The translations under genes and the position numbers were made by a program. Below the pieces are notes generated by a model. It had not been told where the DNA came from and ran no database searches. It saw only the letters and a program-made list of their open reading frames with translations. Below, one piece after another: positions 28,668-34,051 of a stretch of 64,000 nucleotides of DNA; the first letter of the stretch is position 1; the number at the start of each line of letters is the position of its first letter. This DNA comes from Verrucomicrobiaceae bacterium. GTDB lineage: Bacteria; Verrucomicrobiota; Verrucomicrobiia; Verrucomicrobiales; Verrucomicrobiaceae. The DNA lies in NCBI GenBank assembly GCA_016713035.1, contig JADJPW010000004.1, positions 467,578-531,577 of the forward strand, in the 5' to 3' direction.

Positions 28668-28889
28668 ATGCGTAAAACCAAAAACGACCAAGGCAAGACC
28701 GACTACATCGCGGACCCCGCCTCCACCGAGGTCCTCTGTGCCCGCTTCTACGATCTGAAGACCGCCAAGCCCATCTTCGCCGGTGCCGACGACGGCATCG
28801 TGTACTCAACCTTCCAAGAAATGGCCGCCAAAAACAAAGTCGCCTACGACTTCTTCAGCACCCGCCCCGCCGAACTCCGCGACATCAAG
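28668..28889 (+). pseudogene. Possible C-terminal remnant of a PL10 (PelA/Pel-15E) pectate lyase
   Basis: ARFYDLKTAKPIFAGADDGIVY resembles the PL10 C-terminal W-ARFY..T..PIF..RDG motif; host-like codon bias but no N-terminal domain or signal. Confidence 0.45.
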
Positions 28890-29424
28890 TATGATCAAAC
28901 CGCTGCTAATCATAACATCTCTGACATTGCTTGCTGCATGCACAAGCCAAGTAAACTTGCCTTATGTTGCACAAATCGATGAACTGGATGCTCCAAAGGT
29001 GCGTTGGTCCCCAAAAGACTCCGTTCACACTTACGCATCACTGACGCTTATCGATTCAAAGTCTGCCAAAGAGCTCGCTCGTGTTCGCAGTGTATTCGAT
29101 GAGGATTGGGTTGCATCTATGGGCCGTCCGGAAGGCGATTCAATCAGCACGTTTCGCAGCCCAACGAATACCACGATCGTCGTTCACGAATGTGCCTCCG
29201 AATCTTCACCAAACGAGCACTTGGCGATTTTCACCAAAGACAGCAGTTCCGGCACATGGACTGTCCAATCGACATTTCCACCTCACAAACCCGACTTTCT
29301 ATACGGACACTATGGAGTAACGCGTGGAGTAGACGATAACCACCTATACTACCAGTTTCCAGACGGTATACTTAGACGCATAGAACTAACATCACTTCCG
29401 CCTAGAGACATGACACTACCATGA
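28890..29424 (+). CDS. Lipoprotein of unknown function, AT-richer than the host
   Basis: MIKPLLIITSLTLLAAC lipobox; atypical codon usage. Confidence 0.7.
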
Positions 29425-30593
29425 CCTACAAACAGGTCGTTTGGCCTCTCCTCTTTTCTTCATTCGTCATTTTGATTTCGTCATTGGCGGCGCAGCCGCC
29501 GAACATGCTCCTCGGCACGCAGGCCATCGGCGCGCGGTATCAGTTCACGAAAGACGAGCCCTTGCTAGAGAGTGCGAAGCTGATCGCGGAGCTGGGGTCG
29601 GGCATCATGAAGTTCTCGATCTCGAAGCAGGCCTCGTTTGGCAAGATGAAGGCGAATGTGCTCAACAATGATCTGGGGCTGAAAACCCTCGCGGAGATTG
29701 CCGCGAAGGACCCGACGCATCGCGCGGTGCTCGACATGCCGTTCACGCACGTTTTCATCTGGGCCTATCCCTTCACCACGCATGGCAGCGCGGGCGCGTT
29801 CAAGCCTGAGGAACGCGATTTGGAGGAACGCGAGATGTTTGACCTCACCGCGCACCTGCTGCGCACTTACAGTGGCAGCGGCAAAAAATTCTACCTCGGT
29901 CACTGGGAGGGCGATTGGCACCTGCGACCGCACTTTGACCCTAAACAGCCCTTCCCCGAGCACTTTGGCGACAATTTCATCGCCTGGCTCAAGGTCCGCC
30001 AGCAGGCCATCGACGACGCAAAGCGCGACACGCCGCATCAAAACGTCGAAGTCTGGCACTACACCGAGGCAAACCTCGTCGAGCCCTTCCTCAAAGGCGG
30101 CCAATGCCTCACCAACGACATCCTCCCGCAGGTAGATGTCGATTTCGTCAGCTACTCCTGCTACGACAGCTTGCAGCGCGGCATCCGCGACGATCTCCAC
30201 GCCTCGCTCAACCACATCGAGTCGAAGCTGAAGCCCAAGCCAGGCATTCCCGGCAAACGCGTCTTCATCGGCGAATACGGCTTCCCCGCGCGTCGCTACT
30301 CGCCGGAGGTGCAAAACAAAAAGAGCATCGAGACCATGATCGCCGCGCTCGAATGGGGCTGCCCCTTCGTGCTCTACTGGGAACTCTACGACAACGAAGG
30401 CACCCCCGATAAACCGGGCGGTTTCTGGCTCATCAACGAAAAGAACGAAAAGCAGCCCCTCTGGCACACGCATCAGCGCTACTTCACGTGGGCGAGGAAA
30501 CACATCGCGGACTTCCAGCAACGCACCGGGAAGCTTCCGACCGAGGCGGAATTCCGCGCAGCGGCGTTGGAGTATCTGCGAGGGCTAAAGTAG
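29421..30593 (+). CDS. Secreted glycoside-hydrolase-like TIM-barrel protein
   Basis: Signal peptide; GHWEGDW, VFIGEYGF and YWELYDNE motifs resembling clan GH-A catalytic strands. Confidence 0.55.
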   Translation: MTYKQVVWPLLFSSFVILISSLAAQPPNMLLGTQAIGARYQFTKDEPLLESAKLIAELGSGIMKFSISKQASFGKMKANVLNNDLGLKTLAEIAAKDPTHRAVLDMPFTHVFIWAYPFTTHGSAGAFKPEERDLEEREMFDLTAHLLRTYSGSGKKFYLGHWEGDWHLRPHFDPKQPFPEHFGDNFIAWLKVRQQAIDDAKRDTPHQNVEVWHYTEANLVEPFLKGGQCLTNDILPQVDVDFVSYSCYDSLQRGIRDDLHASLNHIESKLKPKPGIPGKRVFIGEYGFPARRYSPEVQNKKSIETMIAALEWGCPFVLYWELYDNEGTPDKPGGFWLINEKNEKQPLWHTHQRYFTWARKHIADFQQRTGKLPTEAEFRAAALEYLRGLK

Positions 30594-30646
30594 CCTTGTT
30601 GCTGCGCAACAAGGGCAAACCCTGTTCCGCAGGAACAGGGCTACTT
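30587..30646. repeat. REP doublet (REPIN/BIME-like), copy 1
   Basis: GTAG+CCTTGTTGC-TGC-GCAACAAGG on + and GTAG+CCCTGTTCC-TGC-GGAACAGGG on -; 58/60 identical to copy 2. Confidence 0.9.
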
Positions 30647-31378
30647 GACCGAAAGTGCGCCCCAGCCATCAAACTCCAAACCTAAACTTTCTGCTTGATG
30701 CATTAAATAGACCGACTCCGGCCCGATTAATTGCATGTCTAGCGGCATAGTTTTTGACATCAGCAGCCTCTCTTCAGACGAAGACAGTTCCATCATTTGA
30801 TAACCTCGCCCCGACAAAACCTGTGCCAGGGTTCTCAAAGGCTGCTCGCTGCCTCTGAAACAGTATTCAATCACATGAAGTTTTTCTGGATCGCTACCAC
30901 TCTCCATCAATGACGCCACGACGCGTTTGTCCGTAATCCATTGCCATGATTCGGGCGAGGGCCAAACCGAATCGAAGAAAAAATCCCAACCTTCATGTTC
31001 TGAGATATCCATGCCTTCGTAAGCGTCGATTTCTCTCAGCCAAAGTCCTACATAAGGCCGAAACTGGTCCCAATCGCCCACTTGAAACACCAGCTCGCGT
31101 TTTCCAGAGTGGGTGAGCCGTCCGACCATGAGGCAATCAGCCTCATTTTCTGTCAAGAGAGCCGCCAGATCATCCTCCATCGCCCAAAGCACATCCGCCT
31201 CCTCATTGGCAGGCCCACCGTTTTCATTCGGCTTTTGGATCGGAATAATGATCCTGGCACAATGAGGGAAACGACTTTGCTCGATCTTATCGGCCTCAGT
31301 GTAAAAAGTGGAAATCACCGGTCCATTGTCGGTGCGATAAAGGTAGCTTTCCCAGTTCTGTTCAGGCACAACGCTCAT
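30641..31378 (-). CDS. DUF695 family protein with RraB-like C-terminal domain; lower GC
   Basis: MEDDL...VGRLTHSGKRELVFQV...W.FFFDSVWP pattern; GAAGGT RBS before ATG 31378. Confidence 0.7.
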   Translation of the reverse strand: MSVVPEQNWESYLYRTDNGPVISTFYTEADKIEQSRFPHCARIIIPIQKPNENGGPANEEADVLWAMEDDLAALLTENEADCLMVGRLTHSGKRELVFQVGDWDQFRPYVGLWLREIDAYEGMDISEHEGWDFFFDSVWPSPESWQWITDKRVVASLMESGSDPEKLHVIEYCFRGSEQPLRTLAQVLSGRGYQMMELSSSEERLLMSKTMPLDMQLIGPESVYLMHQAESLGLEFDGWGALSVK

Positions 31379-31417
31379 ACCTTCGTCTAGCACGGCGGCC
31401 TTCGCAGTGTCGAGACC

Positions 31418-31477
31418 AAAGTAGCCTTGTTGCTGTGCAACAAGCGCAAACCCTGTTCCGCAGGAACAGGGCTACTT
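31418..31477. repeat. REP doublet (REPIN/BIME-like), copy 2
   Basis: Same architecture and orientation as 30587-30646, with two substitutions. Confidence 0.9.
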
Positions 31478-34051
31478 TCTCAACACCACCGCCAAAATCC
31501 CGCTCGCGTGCTCCCAGCGGCGGATGACGGTGTCGATCAAGAACAGCAGCAATGCCGCGAGCACCAAGTCCGGCCACAGCTCGATGTGCTGCATGGCTTT
31601 GGTCGTCTCCAAGTTCGGCAAAGCGGCGTTTTCGGCCAAAAACTCGCCACCGGTGAGATTTGCGGCTTCGCGGAGCAGTGTTTCGTTCACGGTGCCGAGG
31701 CTGGCTTCGCTGCTCGGATTGTGCACGAGACCGGCGCTGACCATTTCGGCACCGCTGCGGGCGCGGATGAGATACACGCCGGCTTCATCTGGCTGGAAGT
31801 GGCCGCTGTATTCGCCGGGGGCGGTTTGGGTGAGCGTGAGCTGCTGCGTGGGCTTCATCGGCGCACCGAGGGCATCGGCGACGATGTGGAAGACCTCGGC
31901 GGTGACAGCGGCGTTGTTCGCACGGGTGCCCGCATCGCTCAAAAGATCGACGGTGATCTTCGCGTCATCGCCTTGCATCGTTGTGGCGAGATCCATGAAG
32001 CGACCCTGCGGCGGGCGAGCCGTTTCACGCAGGATTTGTGACCAAAAACGGCTGTAACCCGGCCAGCGGGCGATCCACAGCGAAGCCCAGCGGCTTTTCG
32101 CATCGGAGGTGAACGCGGTGACATTGCCGAGGCCGAATCGCCAATGCGCCAGCAGCGGATCACCGGTGTCGGTGAGCAGTGGCGACTGCGCGGCGGCTTT
32201 ACGCGTGGTTTTGACGTAGCCGAGCAAATCCGGGCTGTCCCATTTTTCGAAGCCCGCGAGCATCGGATGTTTTTCGACGAGTTGAGGCGTGAAGGGCTCC
32301 TCGCGGATCATGCGGCCGGTGTGCATGAGCGTGTCCTGCGTGAAGATGCGCGTGATCGTGCTCGCATCGGTCGTCGAGTAGCTTTGACCTCCACCCGCGC
32401 TCGCGATGGCATGCAGCAGCGCAACGTGGGAACCCTCGCCAATCGCCACGGTGGAGATGGTGATGCCTTCACCACGGCATTGCGACGCAAAGGCTTCATA
32501 ACCACCGCCCGCCGTCTGGCCATCGGTGAGCACGATCATGTGCTTCACGCGGGCTTTGACGCGCAAAAGAGCCTCGCGAGCCAGTTTGAAGGCTGGTTCG
32601 AGGTTCGTGCCGCCACCGCTCGCCACGGCGGCGATCTGGCCGGTGACCGCGGCGGTGGAGGTGAGCCGCGTCATCGGCGCGACGACGTGTGCTTCACTGT
32701 CAAAGGCCCACACGCCGATGCTGTCGTTGCGACCCAAAACCTCGGCGGTGGCGATAGCGGCGCTTTTCGCCATTTCGAGCTTCTCACCAGCCATCGAGCC
32801 GCTGCGGTCCATCACGATGGCCACGGCCGCGCTTTGCTTTTCCTCTTCATCCGGCGCTTTGAGCCTCACAGGCAGCGTTTCTTCGATCGGTGTGCGATAG
32901 TAGCCACCCGTGCCGAAAGATCCCGGCCCTCCGAGCATGAGCAAGCCGCCGCCAAGCTTGTCGATGTAATCACGCAGCATGTTCATGAGCGGCTCACCAA
33001 GCTGATGCGCGGGCACATCGCTCAAAATGACCCCGTCGTAGCCCGCGAGCTGGTCGAGGCTGAAAGCCAGATTGCCCGGCTGTCGCAAATCGAGCTCCAC
33101 GCCCTCTTTTTCCATCGCCTGCGTGAGGTAGCGAGCCTCCGCCGCATCGCTCTCGATGTAGAGCATGCGCAACCGCCCACGCACATCGACGATAGCGAGC
33201 GAGCTGTTGTTCCCTGGCAAGGTATCGCCGCTGATGCCGTCCAAAGCGGCGCGATAATGGTAAATGCTCCGCGTTGCTGGAGTGCGTTGAAACGTGAGCA
33301 CACTCGGCGTACCCGGCTTGAGCTGCACAGGCCGTTTTTCCACCTCGATGCCGTTTTCAAAGAGTCGCAGCACGCCGCTCGCTTCAATGGTGCTCTCGAC
33401 CGTGGCCGTGAGCTGCAAACTCGCGCCTTCAAACAACCGCGAGCGATTCGAAATGAGCGACCGCACCCGCGCATCCGGTTTCTTCGGTCCCGCGATGGGC
33501 AGTGCATGCACTTTGATGCCGCTCACCGCCGCCTCGCGTGCTGCGGCGAGCAAATCGCCGCGTGTCTCGTGTCCATCGCCGATGATCAATACATTGCGGC
33601 TCGTTCCCGGCGGAAACATCGCCTCCGCATACTCCAGCGCCGCCGCGTAATGGCTGTCGCCACCGTTTTTCACCTGCCAATTCTGCGTTTCGGCCTCCGT
33701 GGCCTTTTCCGGCAGCAGATCCGGCTTCGCACCAAGCTGCACGATGAAGCTATCGATCCCGCCCGCTTCGCCTTGAAGCCGCCGCGCCTGCTCCATCGCC
33801 TTCTTCGCCCCTTCCTCGCCCATGCTTTGCGACGCATCCACCACGATGCCCAGCGCCTTCCGCCCCGTCTGCGAAACCCGCGCCGGTCCCGCCAGCGCCG
33901 CGATGATCAGCATCACGATCACCGCCCGCACCACCAGCAGCAGTCTCTTCCGCAACCCCGTCATCGGATGCGAAGACGCGGATTCGATCCACAACAGCGC
34001 CGCGAGCGCCGGGAGGATCAAAAGCAGAAGTTTGGGTGATTCCCAGTCCAC
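31472..34051 (-). CDS. VWA domain / glutamine-amidotransferase-like membrane protein (BatA-type N-terminus)
   Basis: Two MIDAS motifs DASQS and DRSGS, GGGTN, LTDG; GTG start; C-terminal TM. Confidence 0.85.
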   Translation of the reverse strand: MDWESPKLLLLILPALAALLWIESASSHPMTGLRKRLLLVVRAVIVMLIIAALAGPARVSQTGRKALGIVVDASQSMGEEGAKKAMEQARRLQGEAGGIDSFIVQLGAKPDLLPEKATEAETQNWQVKNGGDSHYAAALEYAEAMFPPGTSRNVLIIGDGHETRGDLLAAAREAAVSGIKVHALPIAGPKKPDARVRSLISNRSRLFEGASLQLTATVESTIEASGVLRLFENGIEVEKRPVQLKPGTPSVLTFQRTPATRSIYHYRAALDGISGDTLPGNNSSLAIVDVRGRLRMLYIESDAAEARYLTQAMEKEGVELDLRQPGNLAFSLDQLAGYDGVILSDVPAHQLGEPLMNMLRDYIDKLGGGLLMLGGPGSFGTGGYYRTPIEETLPVRLKAPDEEEKQSAAVAIVMDRSGSMAGEKLEMAKSAAIATAEVLGRNDSIGVWAFDSEAHVVAPMTRLTSTAAVTGQIAAVASGGGTNLEPAFKLAREALLRVKARVKHMIVLTDGQTAGGGYEAFASQCRGEGITISTVAIGEGSHVALLHAIASAGGGQSYSTTDASTITRIFTQDTLMHTGRMIREEPFTPQLVEKHPMLAGFEKWDSPDLLGYVKTTRKAAAQSPLLTDTGDPLLAHWRFGLGNVTAFTSDAKSRWASLWIARWPGYSRFWSQILRETARPPQGRFMDLATTMQGDDAKITVDLLSDAGTRANNAAVTAEVFHIVADALGAPMKPTQQLTLTQTAPGEYSGHFQPDEAGVYLIRARSGAEMVSAGLVHNPSSEASLGTVNETLLREAANLTGGEFLAENAALPNLETTKAMQHIELWPDLVLAALLLFLIDTVIRRWEHASGILAVVLRK

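What the first reader, a model, noticed from the sequence alone, without database searches (positions are those of the whole stretch)
30587..31477. Promoterless low-GC gene bracketed by two near-identical GTAG REP doublets, like a cassette
Seen: two 60-bp direct repeats (58/60 identical) enclose a 771-bp AT-richer segment holding just the DUF695 gene. Its ATG is only about 40 bp from the upstream repeat. Each repeat is two inverted hairpins (9-bp stems, TGC loop), each preceded by GTAG. Known: GTAG plus hairpin is the REP substrate of RAYT/TnpA(REP) HUH nucleases, and inverted doublets are REPINs. Inference: the gene was acquired or can be excised as a REPIN-gene-REPIN unit, similar to an integron cassette but using REP ends. 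No RAYT gene is present in this window.
Basis: partly seen in the sequence, partly recalled or inferred. Interest (0 to 1): 0.68.

Follow-up and report, generated by a model that had tools for sequence, protein, structure and literature searches.

The report
Twin REP repeats flanking a resident gene
Two nearly identical copies of a small selfish palindromic repeat (a GTAG-type REPIN doublet) sit against the stop codons on either side of a small gene, but related bacteria carry that gene at the same spot without the repeats, so the repeats came to the gene and did not deliver it as a cassette.

Summary
Two 60-nt direct repeats (30587-30646 and 31418-31477, 58/60 identical) each consist of two inverted GTAG+hairpin REPs. 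They enclose 771 bp of lower-GC DNA holding one minus-strand gene (DUF695+RraB domains).

The repeat belongs to a dispersed GTAG-REPIN family, here called family A. This genome has 11 perfect-core doublets, and the family occurs in 52 of 105 congeners.

- The two closest DUF695 homologues (71-73% aa, two metagenome contigs) lie directly downstream of the same VWA gene with no REPs.
- The VWA-DUF695 spacer aligns across the right doublet, which is a clean ~52-nt insertion after the VWA TAG stop.
- That doublet is shared with congener G046, which lacks DUF695. The left doublet is its younger sister copy, placed after DUF695's own AAGTAG stop.
- An independent locus in congeners shows the same series: no REP, then an upstream doublet only, then twin doublets.

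The cognate family-A RAYT, itself flanked by twin doublets in four congeners, is absent here. A single doublet marks its place, so doublet-gene-doublet versus single-doublet polymorphism exists. This is ordinary REPIN biology in a Verrucomicrobia-like genome and of modest interest.

The parts
30587..30646 (.). Left family-A REPIN doublet (GTAG-CCTTGTTGC-TGC-GCAACAAGG, spacer GCAAAC, CCCTGTTCC-GCA-GGAACAGGG-CTAC). Younger sister copy. It lies between the stop codons of two convergent genes.
   Evidence: It is 58/60 identical to the right copy (95% over 61 nt in the matrix, against at most 90-92% to any other copy). The spacer GCAAAC is shared only by these two among the 11 copies in this genome and the 82 listed in eight congeners.
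31418..31477 (.). Right family-A REPIN doublet. Older copy, inserted directly after the TAG stop of the VWA gene, in the VWA-DUF695 spacer.
   Evidence: An orthologous doublet sits at the same position after VWA in congener G046. L074 and L073 have the same spacer without it.
30641..31378 (-). DUF695 + RraB-like two-domain gene (245 aa + stop). Resident, fast-evolving, GC 0.50. Its TAG stop is the TAG of the left doublet's inner GTAG.
   Evidence: Pfam and NCBIfam. Homologues of 71-73% aa lie in the same position downstream of VWA without REPs. Their native ends GTCAAATAG / GTCAACTAG compare with GTCAAGTAG here.
31379..31417 (-). Remainder of the ancestral VWA-DUF695 intergenic spacer, between the right doublet and the DUF695 ATG.
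   Evidence: It aligns with the 44-nt spacer of L074 and the 68-nt spacer of L073 (alignment A1). No sigma70-like promoter was found on the minus strand.
31472..34051 (-). VWA + GATase1-like gene (859 aa), upstream of and co-directional with DUF695. Its stop TAG (31472-31474) is the GTAG of the right doublet.
   Evidence: Orthologues are 96% aa identical in G044 and G046. G044 ends ...GGCGGTAA with no REP.
29421..30593 (+). Its stop TAG (30591-30593) is the outer GTAG of the left doublet.
   Evidence: Orthologues in G023 and G010 end in a native ...CAAAAGTAG with no REP. G044 and G046 carry a family-B REPIN at the same spot. In relatives this gene is not next to VWA.

Best explanation
The locus is a resident, fast-evolving DUF695/RraB-like gene lying downstream of (and probably co-transcribed with) a VWA gene. 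It has been bracketed by two sister copies of a family-A GTAG-REPIN doublet. SHOWN: (1) The gene and its upstream spacer were next to VWA before any REP was there. (2) The right doublet is a clean insertion right after the VWA TAG stop and is older, because it is shared with congener G046. (3) The left doublet is the closest relative of the right one and sits right after DUF695's own near-native AAGTAG stop. (4) The family is dispersed, and its cognate RAYT is flanked by twin doublets in congeners. INFERRED: (a) The left copy arose by local duplication of the right copy onto the next GTAG-bearing stop about 0.8 kb downstream. The likely agent is a RAYT/TnpA(REP)-type single-strand cleave-and-join reaction at the replication fork, acting while the cognate RAYT was still present. 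(b) A later rearrangement through or at that doublet brought in the convergent 390-aa gene, whose native end is also AAAGTAG. (c) The 60-nt direct repeats now make the 831-bp unit prone to deletion, which would leave one doublet. That is what the RAYT locus of this same genome looks like. (d) At the RNA level the right doublet probably acts as a 3' hairpin for VWA mRNA and damps read-through into DUF695.
For: The repeats are real and non-random. The family is dispersed: 11 perfect-core doublets here, 4-20 in eight congeners, and matches in 52 of 105 congeners. The closest DUF695 homologues, P0002 (73%) and P0003 (71%), lie 68 and 44 nt downstream of a VWA 3' end, in the same orientation, with no REP. 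Alignment A1 shows G000 and L074 are colinear from VWA through the spacer into DUF695, interrupted only by the doublet. G046 has the orthologous doublet after VWA and no DUF695. The G046 doublet is about 90% identical to each G000 copy, matching the 91% divergence of VWA, whereas the two G000 copies are 58/60 identical to each other (95% in the matrix). An independent parallel exists for a 394-aa gene. G109, G057 and G099 have no REP and a native AAAAAGTAG stop. G059 has only the upstream doublet. G044 has twin doublets with an identical spacer, the downstream one inserted exactly after that stop within a conserved downstream flank. The native AAAGTAG end of the 390-aa gene is empty in G023 and G010 and occupied by a family-B REPIN in G044 and G046. 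The RAYT locus shows the polymorphism: doublet-RAYT-doublet in G046, G110, G044 and G104, but a single doublet in G000 between the left neighbour seen in G046 and the right neighbour seen in G110. Literature: GTAG REP termini often supply TAG stops and lie <20 bp from both convergent ORFs (PMC3733652). TnpA(REP) cleaves and rejoins single-stranded REP DNA with GTAG guiding site choice (PMC8266576).
Against: No direct evidence exists for the duplication mechanism. Gene conversion between nearby copies could also make them look like sisters. L073 and L074 are short metagenome contigs (2.0 and 2.4 kb) of unnamed organisms, so loss of REPINs by precise excision in them cannot be strictly excluded. 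DUF695 is much more diverged (70% nt) than the adjacent VWA 3' end (about 90% nt). This allows allele replacement with a boundary at the VWA stop, exactly where the doublet sits. DNA downstream of DUF695 is not conserved with any relative, so the left doublet's insertion site cannot be compared with an empty site in the same context. This genome lacks the cognate RAYT, so activity must be past or cross-catalysed. The transcriptional effects are pure inference.
Confidence: 0.7

Rival explanations
1. Cassette model. DUF695 plus a doublet is a mobilisable unit, either excised as a circle by a RAYT acting in trans on the outer REPs or integrated Campbell-style into a resident doublet. It was acquired that way between VWA and the 390-aa gene.
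For: The geometry is identical to true REPtrons (doublet-RAYT-doublet, with the same relative orientation and the stop codon inside the GTAG) in G046 and G110. Several other non-RAYT accessory genes in congeners are bracketed by sister doublets: a DUF5615 toxin-like gene and a 394-aa gene. A Fic gene in this genome lies between two doublets that are only 71% identical. Close pairs are far above chance: 4 pairs among 17 doublets in G044 against about 0.06 expected. Single-doublet versus doublet-gene-doublet polymorphism exists for the RAYT. G046 has a single doublet after VWA.
Against: DUF695 sits at the same place next to VWA in REP-free relatives, with a homologous spacer. There is no second context for this gene: it is single-copy here, and the 12 congeners that carry a homologue have versions of <=57% identity, with no REPs in the four loci inspected and, in those four genomes, on a different contig from VWA. 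In the parallel 394-aa case the gene is demonstrably resident and the doublets arrived one after the other. The cognate RAYT is absent from this genome. In G046 the other neighbour is not the 390-aa gene.
Confidence: 0.08
2. Recombination model. The left doublet is a hybrid made by recombination (an inversion) between a doublet at the end of DUF695 and another REPIN at the end of the 390-aa gene. The near-identity of the two copies is maintained by gene conversion rather than by recent duplication.
For: In G044 the VWA and 390-aa genes lie 630 kb apart in the same orientation, and one inversion with end-points at their 3' ends would give the arrangement seen here. Both differences between the copies lie in the half nearest the 390-aa gene, and the other 32 nt are identical. 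The end of the 390-aa gene is a proven REPIN landing site. Synteny in this genus is extensively scrambled.
Against: No relative carries a family-A doublet at the end of the 390-aa gene; only family B is seen there. No reciprocal junction was found in this genome. The model still needs a doublet at DUF695's end, so it supplements rather than replaces the best explanation.
Confidence: 0.15
3. Two independent insertions from a common distant master copy that landed on either side of the gene by chance.
For: REPINs of this family favour positions at TAG stops, which occur at every gene end.
Against: The variable spacer GCAAAC is found only in these two copies among all those listed in nine genomes. 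The expected number of doublet pairs within 1 kb in this genome is about 0.02 (11 copies in 6.2 Mb). The orthologous G046 copy shows that the right copy is old and local.
Confidence: 0.05

Closest known systems
REPINs and their RAYT/TnpA(REP) transposases (Bertels & Rainey 2011, PMC3116915; Ton-Hoang et al. 2012, PMC3333891)
   Same: Two inverted REPs with a short spacer fold into one long hairpin. The copies are dispersed and extragenic. In congeners a single-copy Y1 HUH transposase gene is flanked by the same repeats.
   Different: This genome has lost (or never had) the cognate RAYT. The twin doublets here flank a non-transposase gene. The host is a Verrucomicrobia-like genus rather than a proteobacterium.
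GTAG-tagged REP superfamily (Di Nocera et al. 2013, PMC3733652)
   Same: GTAG lies 5' of a short perfect palindrome. Dimers are common. The elements sit between convergent or co-directional ORFs within 20 bp of 3' ends, and the TAG of GTAG serves as the stop codon. That paper notes that the verrucomicrobium Opitutus terrae is rich in GTAG repeats.
   Different: Nothing essential differs. This is a further family of that kind, for which empty/filled site comparisons are available.
REPtron (RAYT gene flanked by REP/BIME; PMC3333891, PMC8266576)
   Same: A repeat-gene-repeat layout with an inner segment of about 0.7-0.8 kb and the gene's stop inside the repeat.
   Different: The inner gene is DUF695/RraB-like, not a Y1 transposase (best Pfam hits DUF695 and RraB).
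Integron gene cassette
   Same: A small, apparently promoterless ORF bounded by imperfect palindromic repeats.
   Different: Direct copies of the repeat lie on both sides, rather than one attC. No attI/intI platform or cassette array is evident. The gene is syntenic with its neighbour in repeat-free relatives. The repeats are the HUH (Y1) substrate type, not tyrosine-recombinase sites.
REP/BIME-mediated rearrangements (own knowledge: Shyamala, Schneider & Ames 1990, EMBO J, tandem duplications joined at REPs)
   Same: Short dispersed palindromes serve as recombination end-points. Here a single doublet sits where congeners have doublet-RAYT-doublet, and doublets sit at synteny breaks.
   Different: The events here are inferred only from comparison between species. 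They were not observed.

Membership tests
GTAG REP / REPIN | GTAG tetranucleotide immediately 5' of a short G+C-rich perfect palindrome | tested here: met
   All four hairpins have GTAG + an 8-9 bp stem + a 3-nt loop.
GTAG REP / REPIN | Two REPs in inverted orientation with a short spacer, able to form one long hairpin | tested here: met
   The ssDNA fold is -19 to -23 kcal/mol, z -4.7 to -6.4. The left copy folds as a single long hairpin.
GTAG REP / REPIN | Many dispersed, mostly extragenic copies in the genome | tested here: met
   This genome has 31 GTAG-type hairpins and 11 perfect-core doublets on 6 contigs. The reversed-pattern control gives 0 matches.
GTAG REP / REPIN | A cognate RAYT gene flanked by the same repeats in the same genome | tested here: not met
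   The best tblastn hit to the family-A RAYT of G046/G110 is 49-50% identical and is the family-B RAYT at C2:346862-347503, which is flanked by family-B REPs. The feature is met in congeners G046, G110, G044 and G104. A single doublet marks the homologous site in this genome.
GTAG REP / REPIN | Cleavage and strand transfer by the RAYT on the single-stranded repeat | not testable with these tools
   Needs purified protein and oligonucleotide assays of the kind described in PMC8266576.
Mobile cargo unit (REPIN-gene-REPIN cassette / cargo-bearing IS200-IS605-like element) | The same unit occurs in more than one genomic context | tested here: not met
   The gene is single-copy here. The only homologues above 60% identity are in the same VWA context and lack REPs. 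Congener homologues of <=57% identity have no REPs in the four loci inspected.
Mobile cargo unit (REPIN-gene-REPIN cassette / cargo-bearing IS200-IS605-like element) | Homology with relatives stops at the outer ends of the repeats (the unit is foreign to the site) | tested here: not met
   Homology with L074 and L073 runs from VWA across the doublet position into the spacer and gene.
Mobile cargo unit (REPIN-gene-REPIN cassette / cargo-bearing IS200-IS605-like element) | An empty site with one repeat between the same two neighbours | tested here: inconclusive
   G046 has VWA-single doublet, but followed by a different gene. The 390-aa gene lies elsewhere in all relatives checked.
Mobile cargo unit (REPIN-gene-REPIN cassette / cargo-bearing IS200-IS605-like element) | Excised circles or deletion junctions in sequencing reads | not testable with these tools
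Integron cassette | A single attC at the 3' end, an array next to attI and an intI tyrosine recombinase | not tested
   No search for intI was run. The structure seen (identical direct doublets on both sides, with GTAG REP hairpins) is not that of an attC.

The most novel reading that the evidence does not exclude
Family-A doublet pairs might act as the ends of cargo-carrying, RAYT-dependent units (REPtrons in which the transposase gene is replaced by an accessory gene such as DUF695, a DUF5615 toxin or a Fic protein). Such units could be excised and re-inserted at GTAG stop codons, giving an HUH-based analogue of gene cassettes. A weaker version is better supported: doublets copy themselves locally to the next GTAG stop, bracket single genes, and then drive their loss, including the loss of their own RAYT.
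Probability: 0.07. Interest if true: 0.75.

Novelty: new member of a known kind. Interest (0 to 1): 0.3.

Why it matters
The locus gives a clean empty-site/filled-site series for a GTAG REPIN family outside the proteobacteria. The doublets land immediately after pre-existing (A)AGTAG stop codons. The same stop can host REPINs of two different families in different species. A new copy tends to appear about 1 kb from its parent. These points bear on the still unsolved question of how REPINs are disseminated (PMC8266576 states that the mechanism remains to be elucidated). The locus also shows how twin doublets can set up single genes, including the RAYT itself, for loss. As evidence for a new kind of gene cassette, however, it does not hold up.

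Tried and rejected
1. Synteny of the 390-aa 'GH-like' gene. Nine congener loci were fetched, and none has VWA, DUF695 or the window's upstream genes next to it. It therefore gave no empty site, but it did reveal the native AAAGTAG target.
2. A search for the reciprocal junction of a presumed inversion. Neighbours of VWA and of the 390-aa gene in G044, G046 and L074 were compared with this genome. Only scattered hits of 65-84% came back, and gene Z is absent. The result is inconclusive.
4. Rfam found no RNA family in 29000-33000 at E<=1.
5. The promoter/terminator scan found no minus-strand promoter for DUF695, and its only terminator-like call on a doublet hairpin is on the plus strand.
6. A literature search for DUF695/RraB returned only unrelated 'rRABV' papers. 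The function of the gene was not pursued.
7. Other RAYT-like genes in this genome (C2:530777-531301 and C4:43895-44428) have no family-A or family-B REPs in their flanks. They were rejected as the cognate RAYT.
8. The idea that low GC marks recent acquisition was rejected. The orthologues in L073 and L074 have the same low GC (0.52-0.53 against 0.62-0.64 for VWA).
Full report
OBSERVATION

The two 60-nt direct repeats are at 30587-30646 and 31418-31477 and are 58/60 identical. A 25-nt core occurs only at these two sites in the window, and none of 100 shuffles reached two matches.

Each repeat has this layout: AAAGTAG, a 9-bp stem with a TGC loop, a 6-8 nt spacer, then an inverted second hairpin followed by CTACTT. 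In the right copy the first hairpin has an 8-bp stem and a TGT loop. As single-stranded DNA a doublet folds at -19 to -23 kcal/mol (z -4.7 to -6.4). It folds either as two hairpins or as one long REPIN-type hairpin.

The 771 nt between the repeats have GC about 0.50, against about 0.61 in the flanks. They hold one gene, on the minus strand:
- The ATG is at 31378 and the stop is at 30641-30643.
- The product is 245 aa with Pfam DUF695 and RraB domains.
- The ATG is 39 nt from the right repeat.

Three of the four GTAGs supply the TAG stop of a gene.

No Y1_Tnp hit lies in the window, which is C4:467578-531577 of a 6.24-Mb, 19-contig genome.

THE REPEAT FAMILY

The genome holds at least two GTAG REP families that share the head AAAGTAGCC.
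- Family A is the one in this finding. It has 31 GTAG-type hairpins plus GTTG variants, and 11 perfect-core doublets on six contigs.
- Family B (CCATCTCGC-TCC-GCGAGATG) forms inverted pairs about 120 nt apart.

Family-A doublets match in 52 of 105 congeners. Eight congeners examined have 4-20 perfect-core copies each, and the reversed-pattern control gives none. Source names attached to protein homologues point to a Prosthecobacter-like verrucomicrobial genus.

In family A, 9 of the 16 heads that abut a long ORF use the GTAG's TAG as that ORF's stop. Whole doublets lie directly between convergent genes at C1:1014667/1014723 and C1:1223473/1223528 as well as here. This is known behaviour. Di Nocera et al. 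2013 (PMC3733652) report three relevant points:
- GTAG REP termini often provide the TAG stop.
- REPs between convergent ORFs lie <20 bp from both ORFs.
- The verrucomicrobium Opitutus terrae is rich in GTAG repeats.

THE RAYT

The cognate family-A RAYT is 215-225 aa and matches Y1_Tnp. It contains HVH in a VVMPNHVHVL segment. In G046:C509, G110:C152, G044:C1:1405471 and G104:C3 it is flanked by twin doublets.

This genome has no such gene. The best tblastn hit is 49-50% identical, and it is the family-B RAYT at C2:346862-347503, which is flanked by family-B REPs.

At C1:1223470-1223530 this genome has a single doublet between two genes. One is the left neighbour of the G046 RAYT locus (92% nt). 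The other is the sigma-like right neighbour of the G110 RAYT locus. So doublet-gene-doublet versus single-doublet polymorphism exists in this genus, here for the RAYT itself.

WAS DUF695 DELIVERED BY THE REPEATS? NO

Evidence that the gene was already resident:
- In the genus the gene is patchy. Twelve of 104 other species have a homologue, all <=57% identical. The four loci inspected have no REPs, and in those four genomes the homologue lies on a different contig from VWA.
- A search of 5.8 billion proteins found two much closer homologues, P0002 (73%) and P0003 (71%). Both lie on short metagenome contigs (L073 and L074), directly downstream of the 3' end of a VWA orthologue. They have the same orientation, spacers of 68 and 44 nt, and no REP.
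- Alignment A1 shows that G000 and L074 are colinear from VWA through the spacer into DUF695. The only interruption is about 52 nt of doublet inserted after the stop: GAGAAGGTAG|AG|ACTTTCAGCTCGAC in L074 against GAGAAAGTAG[doublet]CTACTTTGGTCTCGAC here.
- All three DUF695 genes are 738 nt long and low in GC (0.50-0.53, against 0.62-0.64 for VWA). They are 70-76% identical in nt, while the adjacent VWA 3' ends are 87-91% identical. Low GC and fast divergence are therefore properties of the gene, not signs of recent arrival.

Evidence on the relative ages of the two doublets:
- G046 (VWA 96% aa) has one family-A doublet at exactly the same place after VWA, followed by an unrelated convergent gene and no DUF695. 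G044 (also 96% aa) has neither REP nor DUF695.
- The G046 doublet is about 90% identical to each G000 copy, which matches host divergence. The two G000 copies are 58/60 identical to each other (95% over 61 nt in the matrix). They alone share the spacer GCAAAC among the 93 doublets listed in nine genomes.
- The right copy is therefore old, and the left copy is its younger sister.
- The left copy starts right after DUF695's stop, GTCAAGTAG. In the REP-free orthologues that end reads GTCAAATAG or GTCAACTAG, so the GTAG is one substitution away from the native end.

AN INDEPENDENT PARALLEL

In G044:C5 a 394-aa gene is bracketed by doublets with identical spacers. Comparison across congeners gives a stepwise series:
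- G109, G057 and G099 have the gene with no REP, a native ...AAAAAGTAG stop, and the same downstream gene.
- G059 has only the upstream doublet, with the same spacer.
- G044 has the second copy inserted exactly after that stop, within the conserved downstream flank.

The 390-aa gene of this window adds a similar point. Its native end AAAGTAG is empty in G023 and G010. In G044 and G046 it carries a family-B REPIN, and here it carries the family-A doublet.

Doublets therefore arrive one after another at GTAG-bearing stops of resident genes, and a new copy tends to land near its parent. Close pairs are far above chance. G044 has 4 pairs among 17 doublets where about 0.06 would be expected.

MOST LIKELY HISTORY AND MECHANISM

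Shown:
- VWA-DUF695 is the older arrangement.
- The right doublet was inserted after the VWA stop before G000 and G046 split.
- The left doublet is a later sister copy placed at DUF695's stop.

Inferred:
- The copy was made by a RAYT/TnpA(REP)-type single-strand cleavage-and-joining reaction. In vitro these enzymes cleave at CT dinucleotides 5' or 3' of the REP, with GTAG guiding site choice (PMC8266576). A nearby landing site is plausible because donor and target would be single-stranded at the same replication fork.
- The cognate RAYT was later lost from this genome.
- The 390-aa gene is not adjacent to VWA in any relative checked. In G044 the two genes are 630 kb apart in the same orientation. 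It was probably brought next to DUF695 by a rearrangement ending in or at the doublet. No reciprocal junction was found, and synteny in the genus is highly scrambled.
- The 60-nt direct repeats now make the 831-bp unit prone to deletion. G046 (VWA-doublet-other gene) and the RAYT-less site at C1:1223470 look like products of such events, but this is not proven.
- DUF695 has no recognisable promoter of its own, and its spacer is 44-68 nt in REP-free relatives. It is probably read through from VWA. The doublet's hairpins probably stabilise the VWA 3' end and lower read-through, by analogy with E. coli REPs.

VERDICT

That agrees with what I verified.

This is a new member of a known kind, a GTAG REPIN family in a Verrucomicrobia-like genus. 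Its useful features are the empty/filled-site series and the REPtron-like bracket around a non-transposase gene. I give about 7% to the most novel reading that remains open, namely that doublet pairs can mobilise cargo genes.

Noticed in passing
Genome contig C1:1223470-1223530 (outside the window): A single family-A doublet sits between a gene that flanks the family-A RAYT locus on the left in G046 and a sigma-like gene that flanks it on the right in G110. This genome therefore looks like a RAYT-plus-one-doublet deletion, leaving about 11 orphan family-A doublets.
   Followed up: yes
L074:355-1300 versus L060 (G044): In L074 the DUF695 segment is flanked by a roughly 16-nt direct repeat of the VWA 3' end (GGTTTTGAGAAGGTAG ... 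GGTTTTGAGGAGATAA). The second copy is followed by the same antitoxin/ParE genes that directly follow VWA in G044. G044 therefore looks like the empty or deleted state of a separate insertion/deletion event that involves no REP.
   Followed up: partly
window 29421-30593 and its orthologues L037-L042: The same native stop context AAAGTAG of the 390-aa gene is empty in G023 and G010, holds a family-B REPIN in G044 and G046, and holds the family-A doublet here. One stop codon is a landing site for two REPIN families.
   Followed up: yes
Genome contig C1:630709-631215 (outside the window): A tandem array of about six units with a 97-bp period. Each unit holds a GTAG-type and a GTTG-type family-A-like hairpin, giving a BIME-like cluster.
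   Followed up: no
window 28783-29421 (+): A 213-aa ORF with no Pfam or NCBIfam match lies in a second low-GC stretch (GC 0.48-0.52) directly upstream of the 390-aa gene. It has no REPs at its ends.
   Followed up: no
Whole genome: About 20 ORFs of roughly 360-440 aa, plus a few shorter ones, each give weak matches to one or both halves of the Y1_Tnp profile (positions 5-62 and 63-119). They form a large paralogous family of long Y1_Tnp-like proteins, distinct from the three IS200-like copies (157-159 aa) and from the RAYTs.
   Followed up: no
window 30641-31378 versus L073 and L074: DUF695/RraB-like orthologues differ by 24-30% in nt, while the adjacent VWA 3' ends differ by only 9-11%. The jump in divergence falls at the VWA stop codon. 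The gene is either fast-evolving or subject to allele replacement, and its function is unknown.
   Followed up: partly
L108 (G103:C238), L106 (G046:C383), L118 and L119 (G044), genome C9:220747-221783: Further non-RAYT segments lie between family-A doublets: a DUF5615/Mut7-C-like toxin gene, a Fic-domain gene, and three segments with unclear ORFs. The C9 pair around the Fic gene is only 71% identical, so it is not a sister pair. Whether these genes are resident, as in the two cases resolved here, was not checked.
   Followed up: partly
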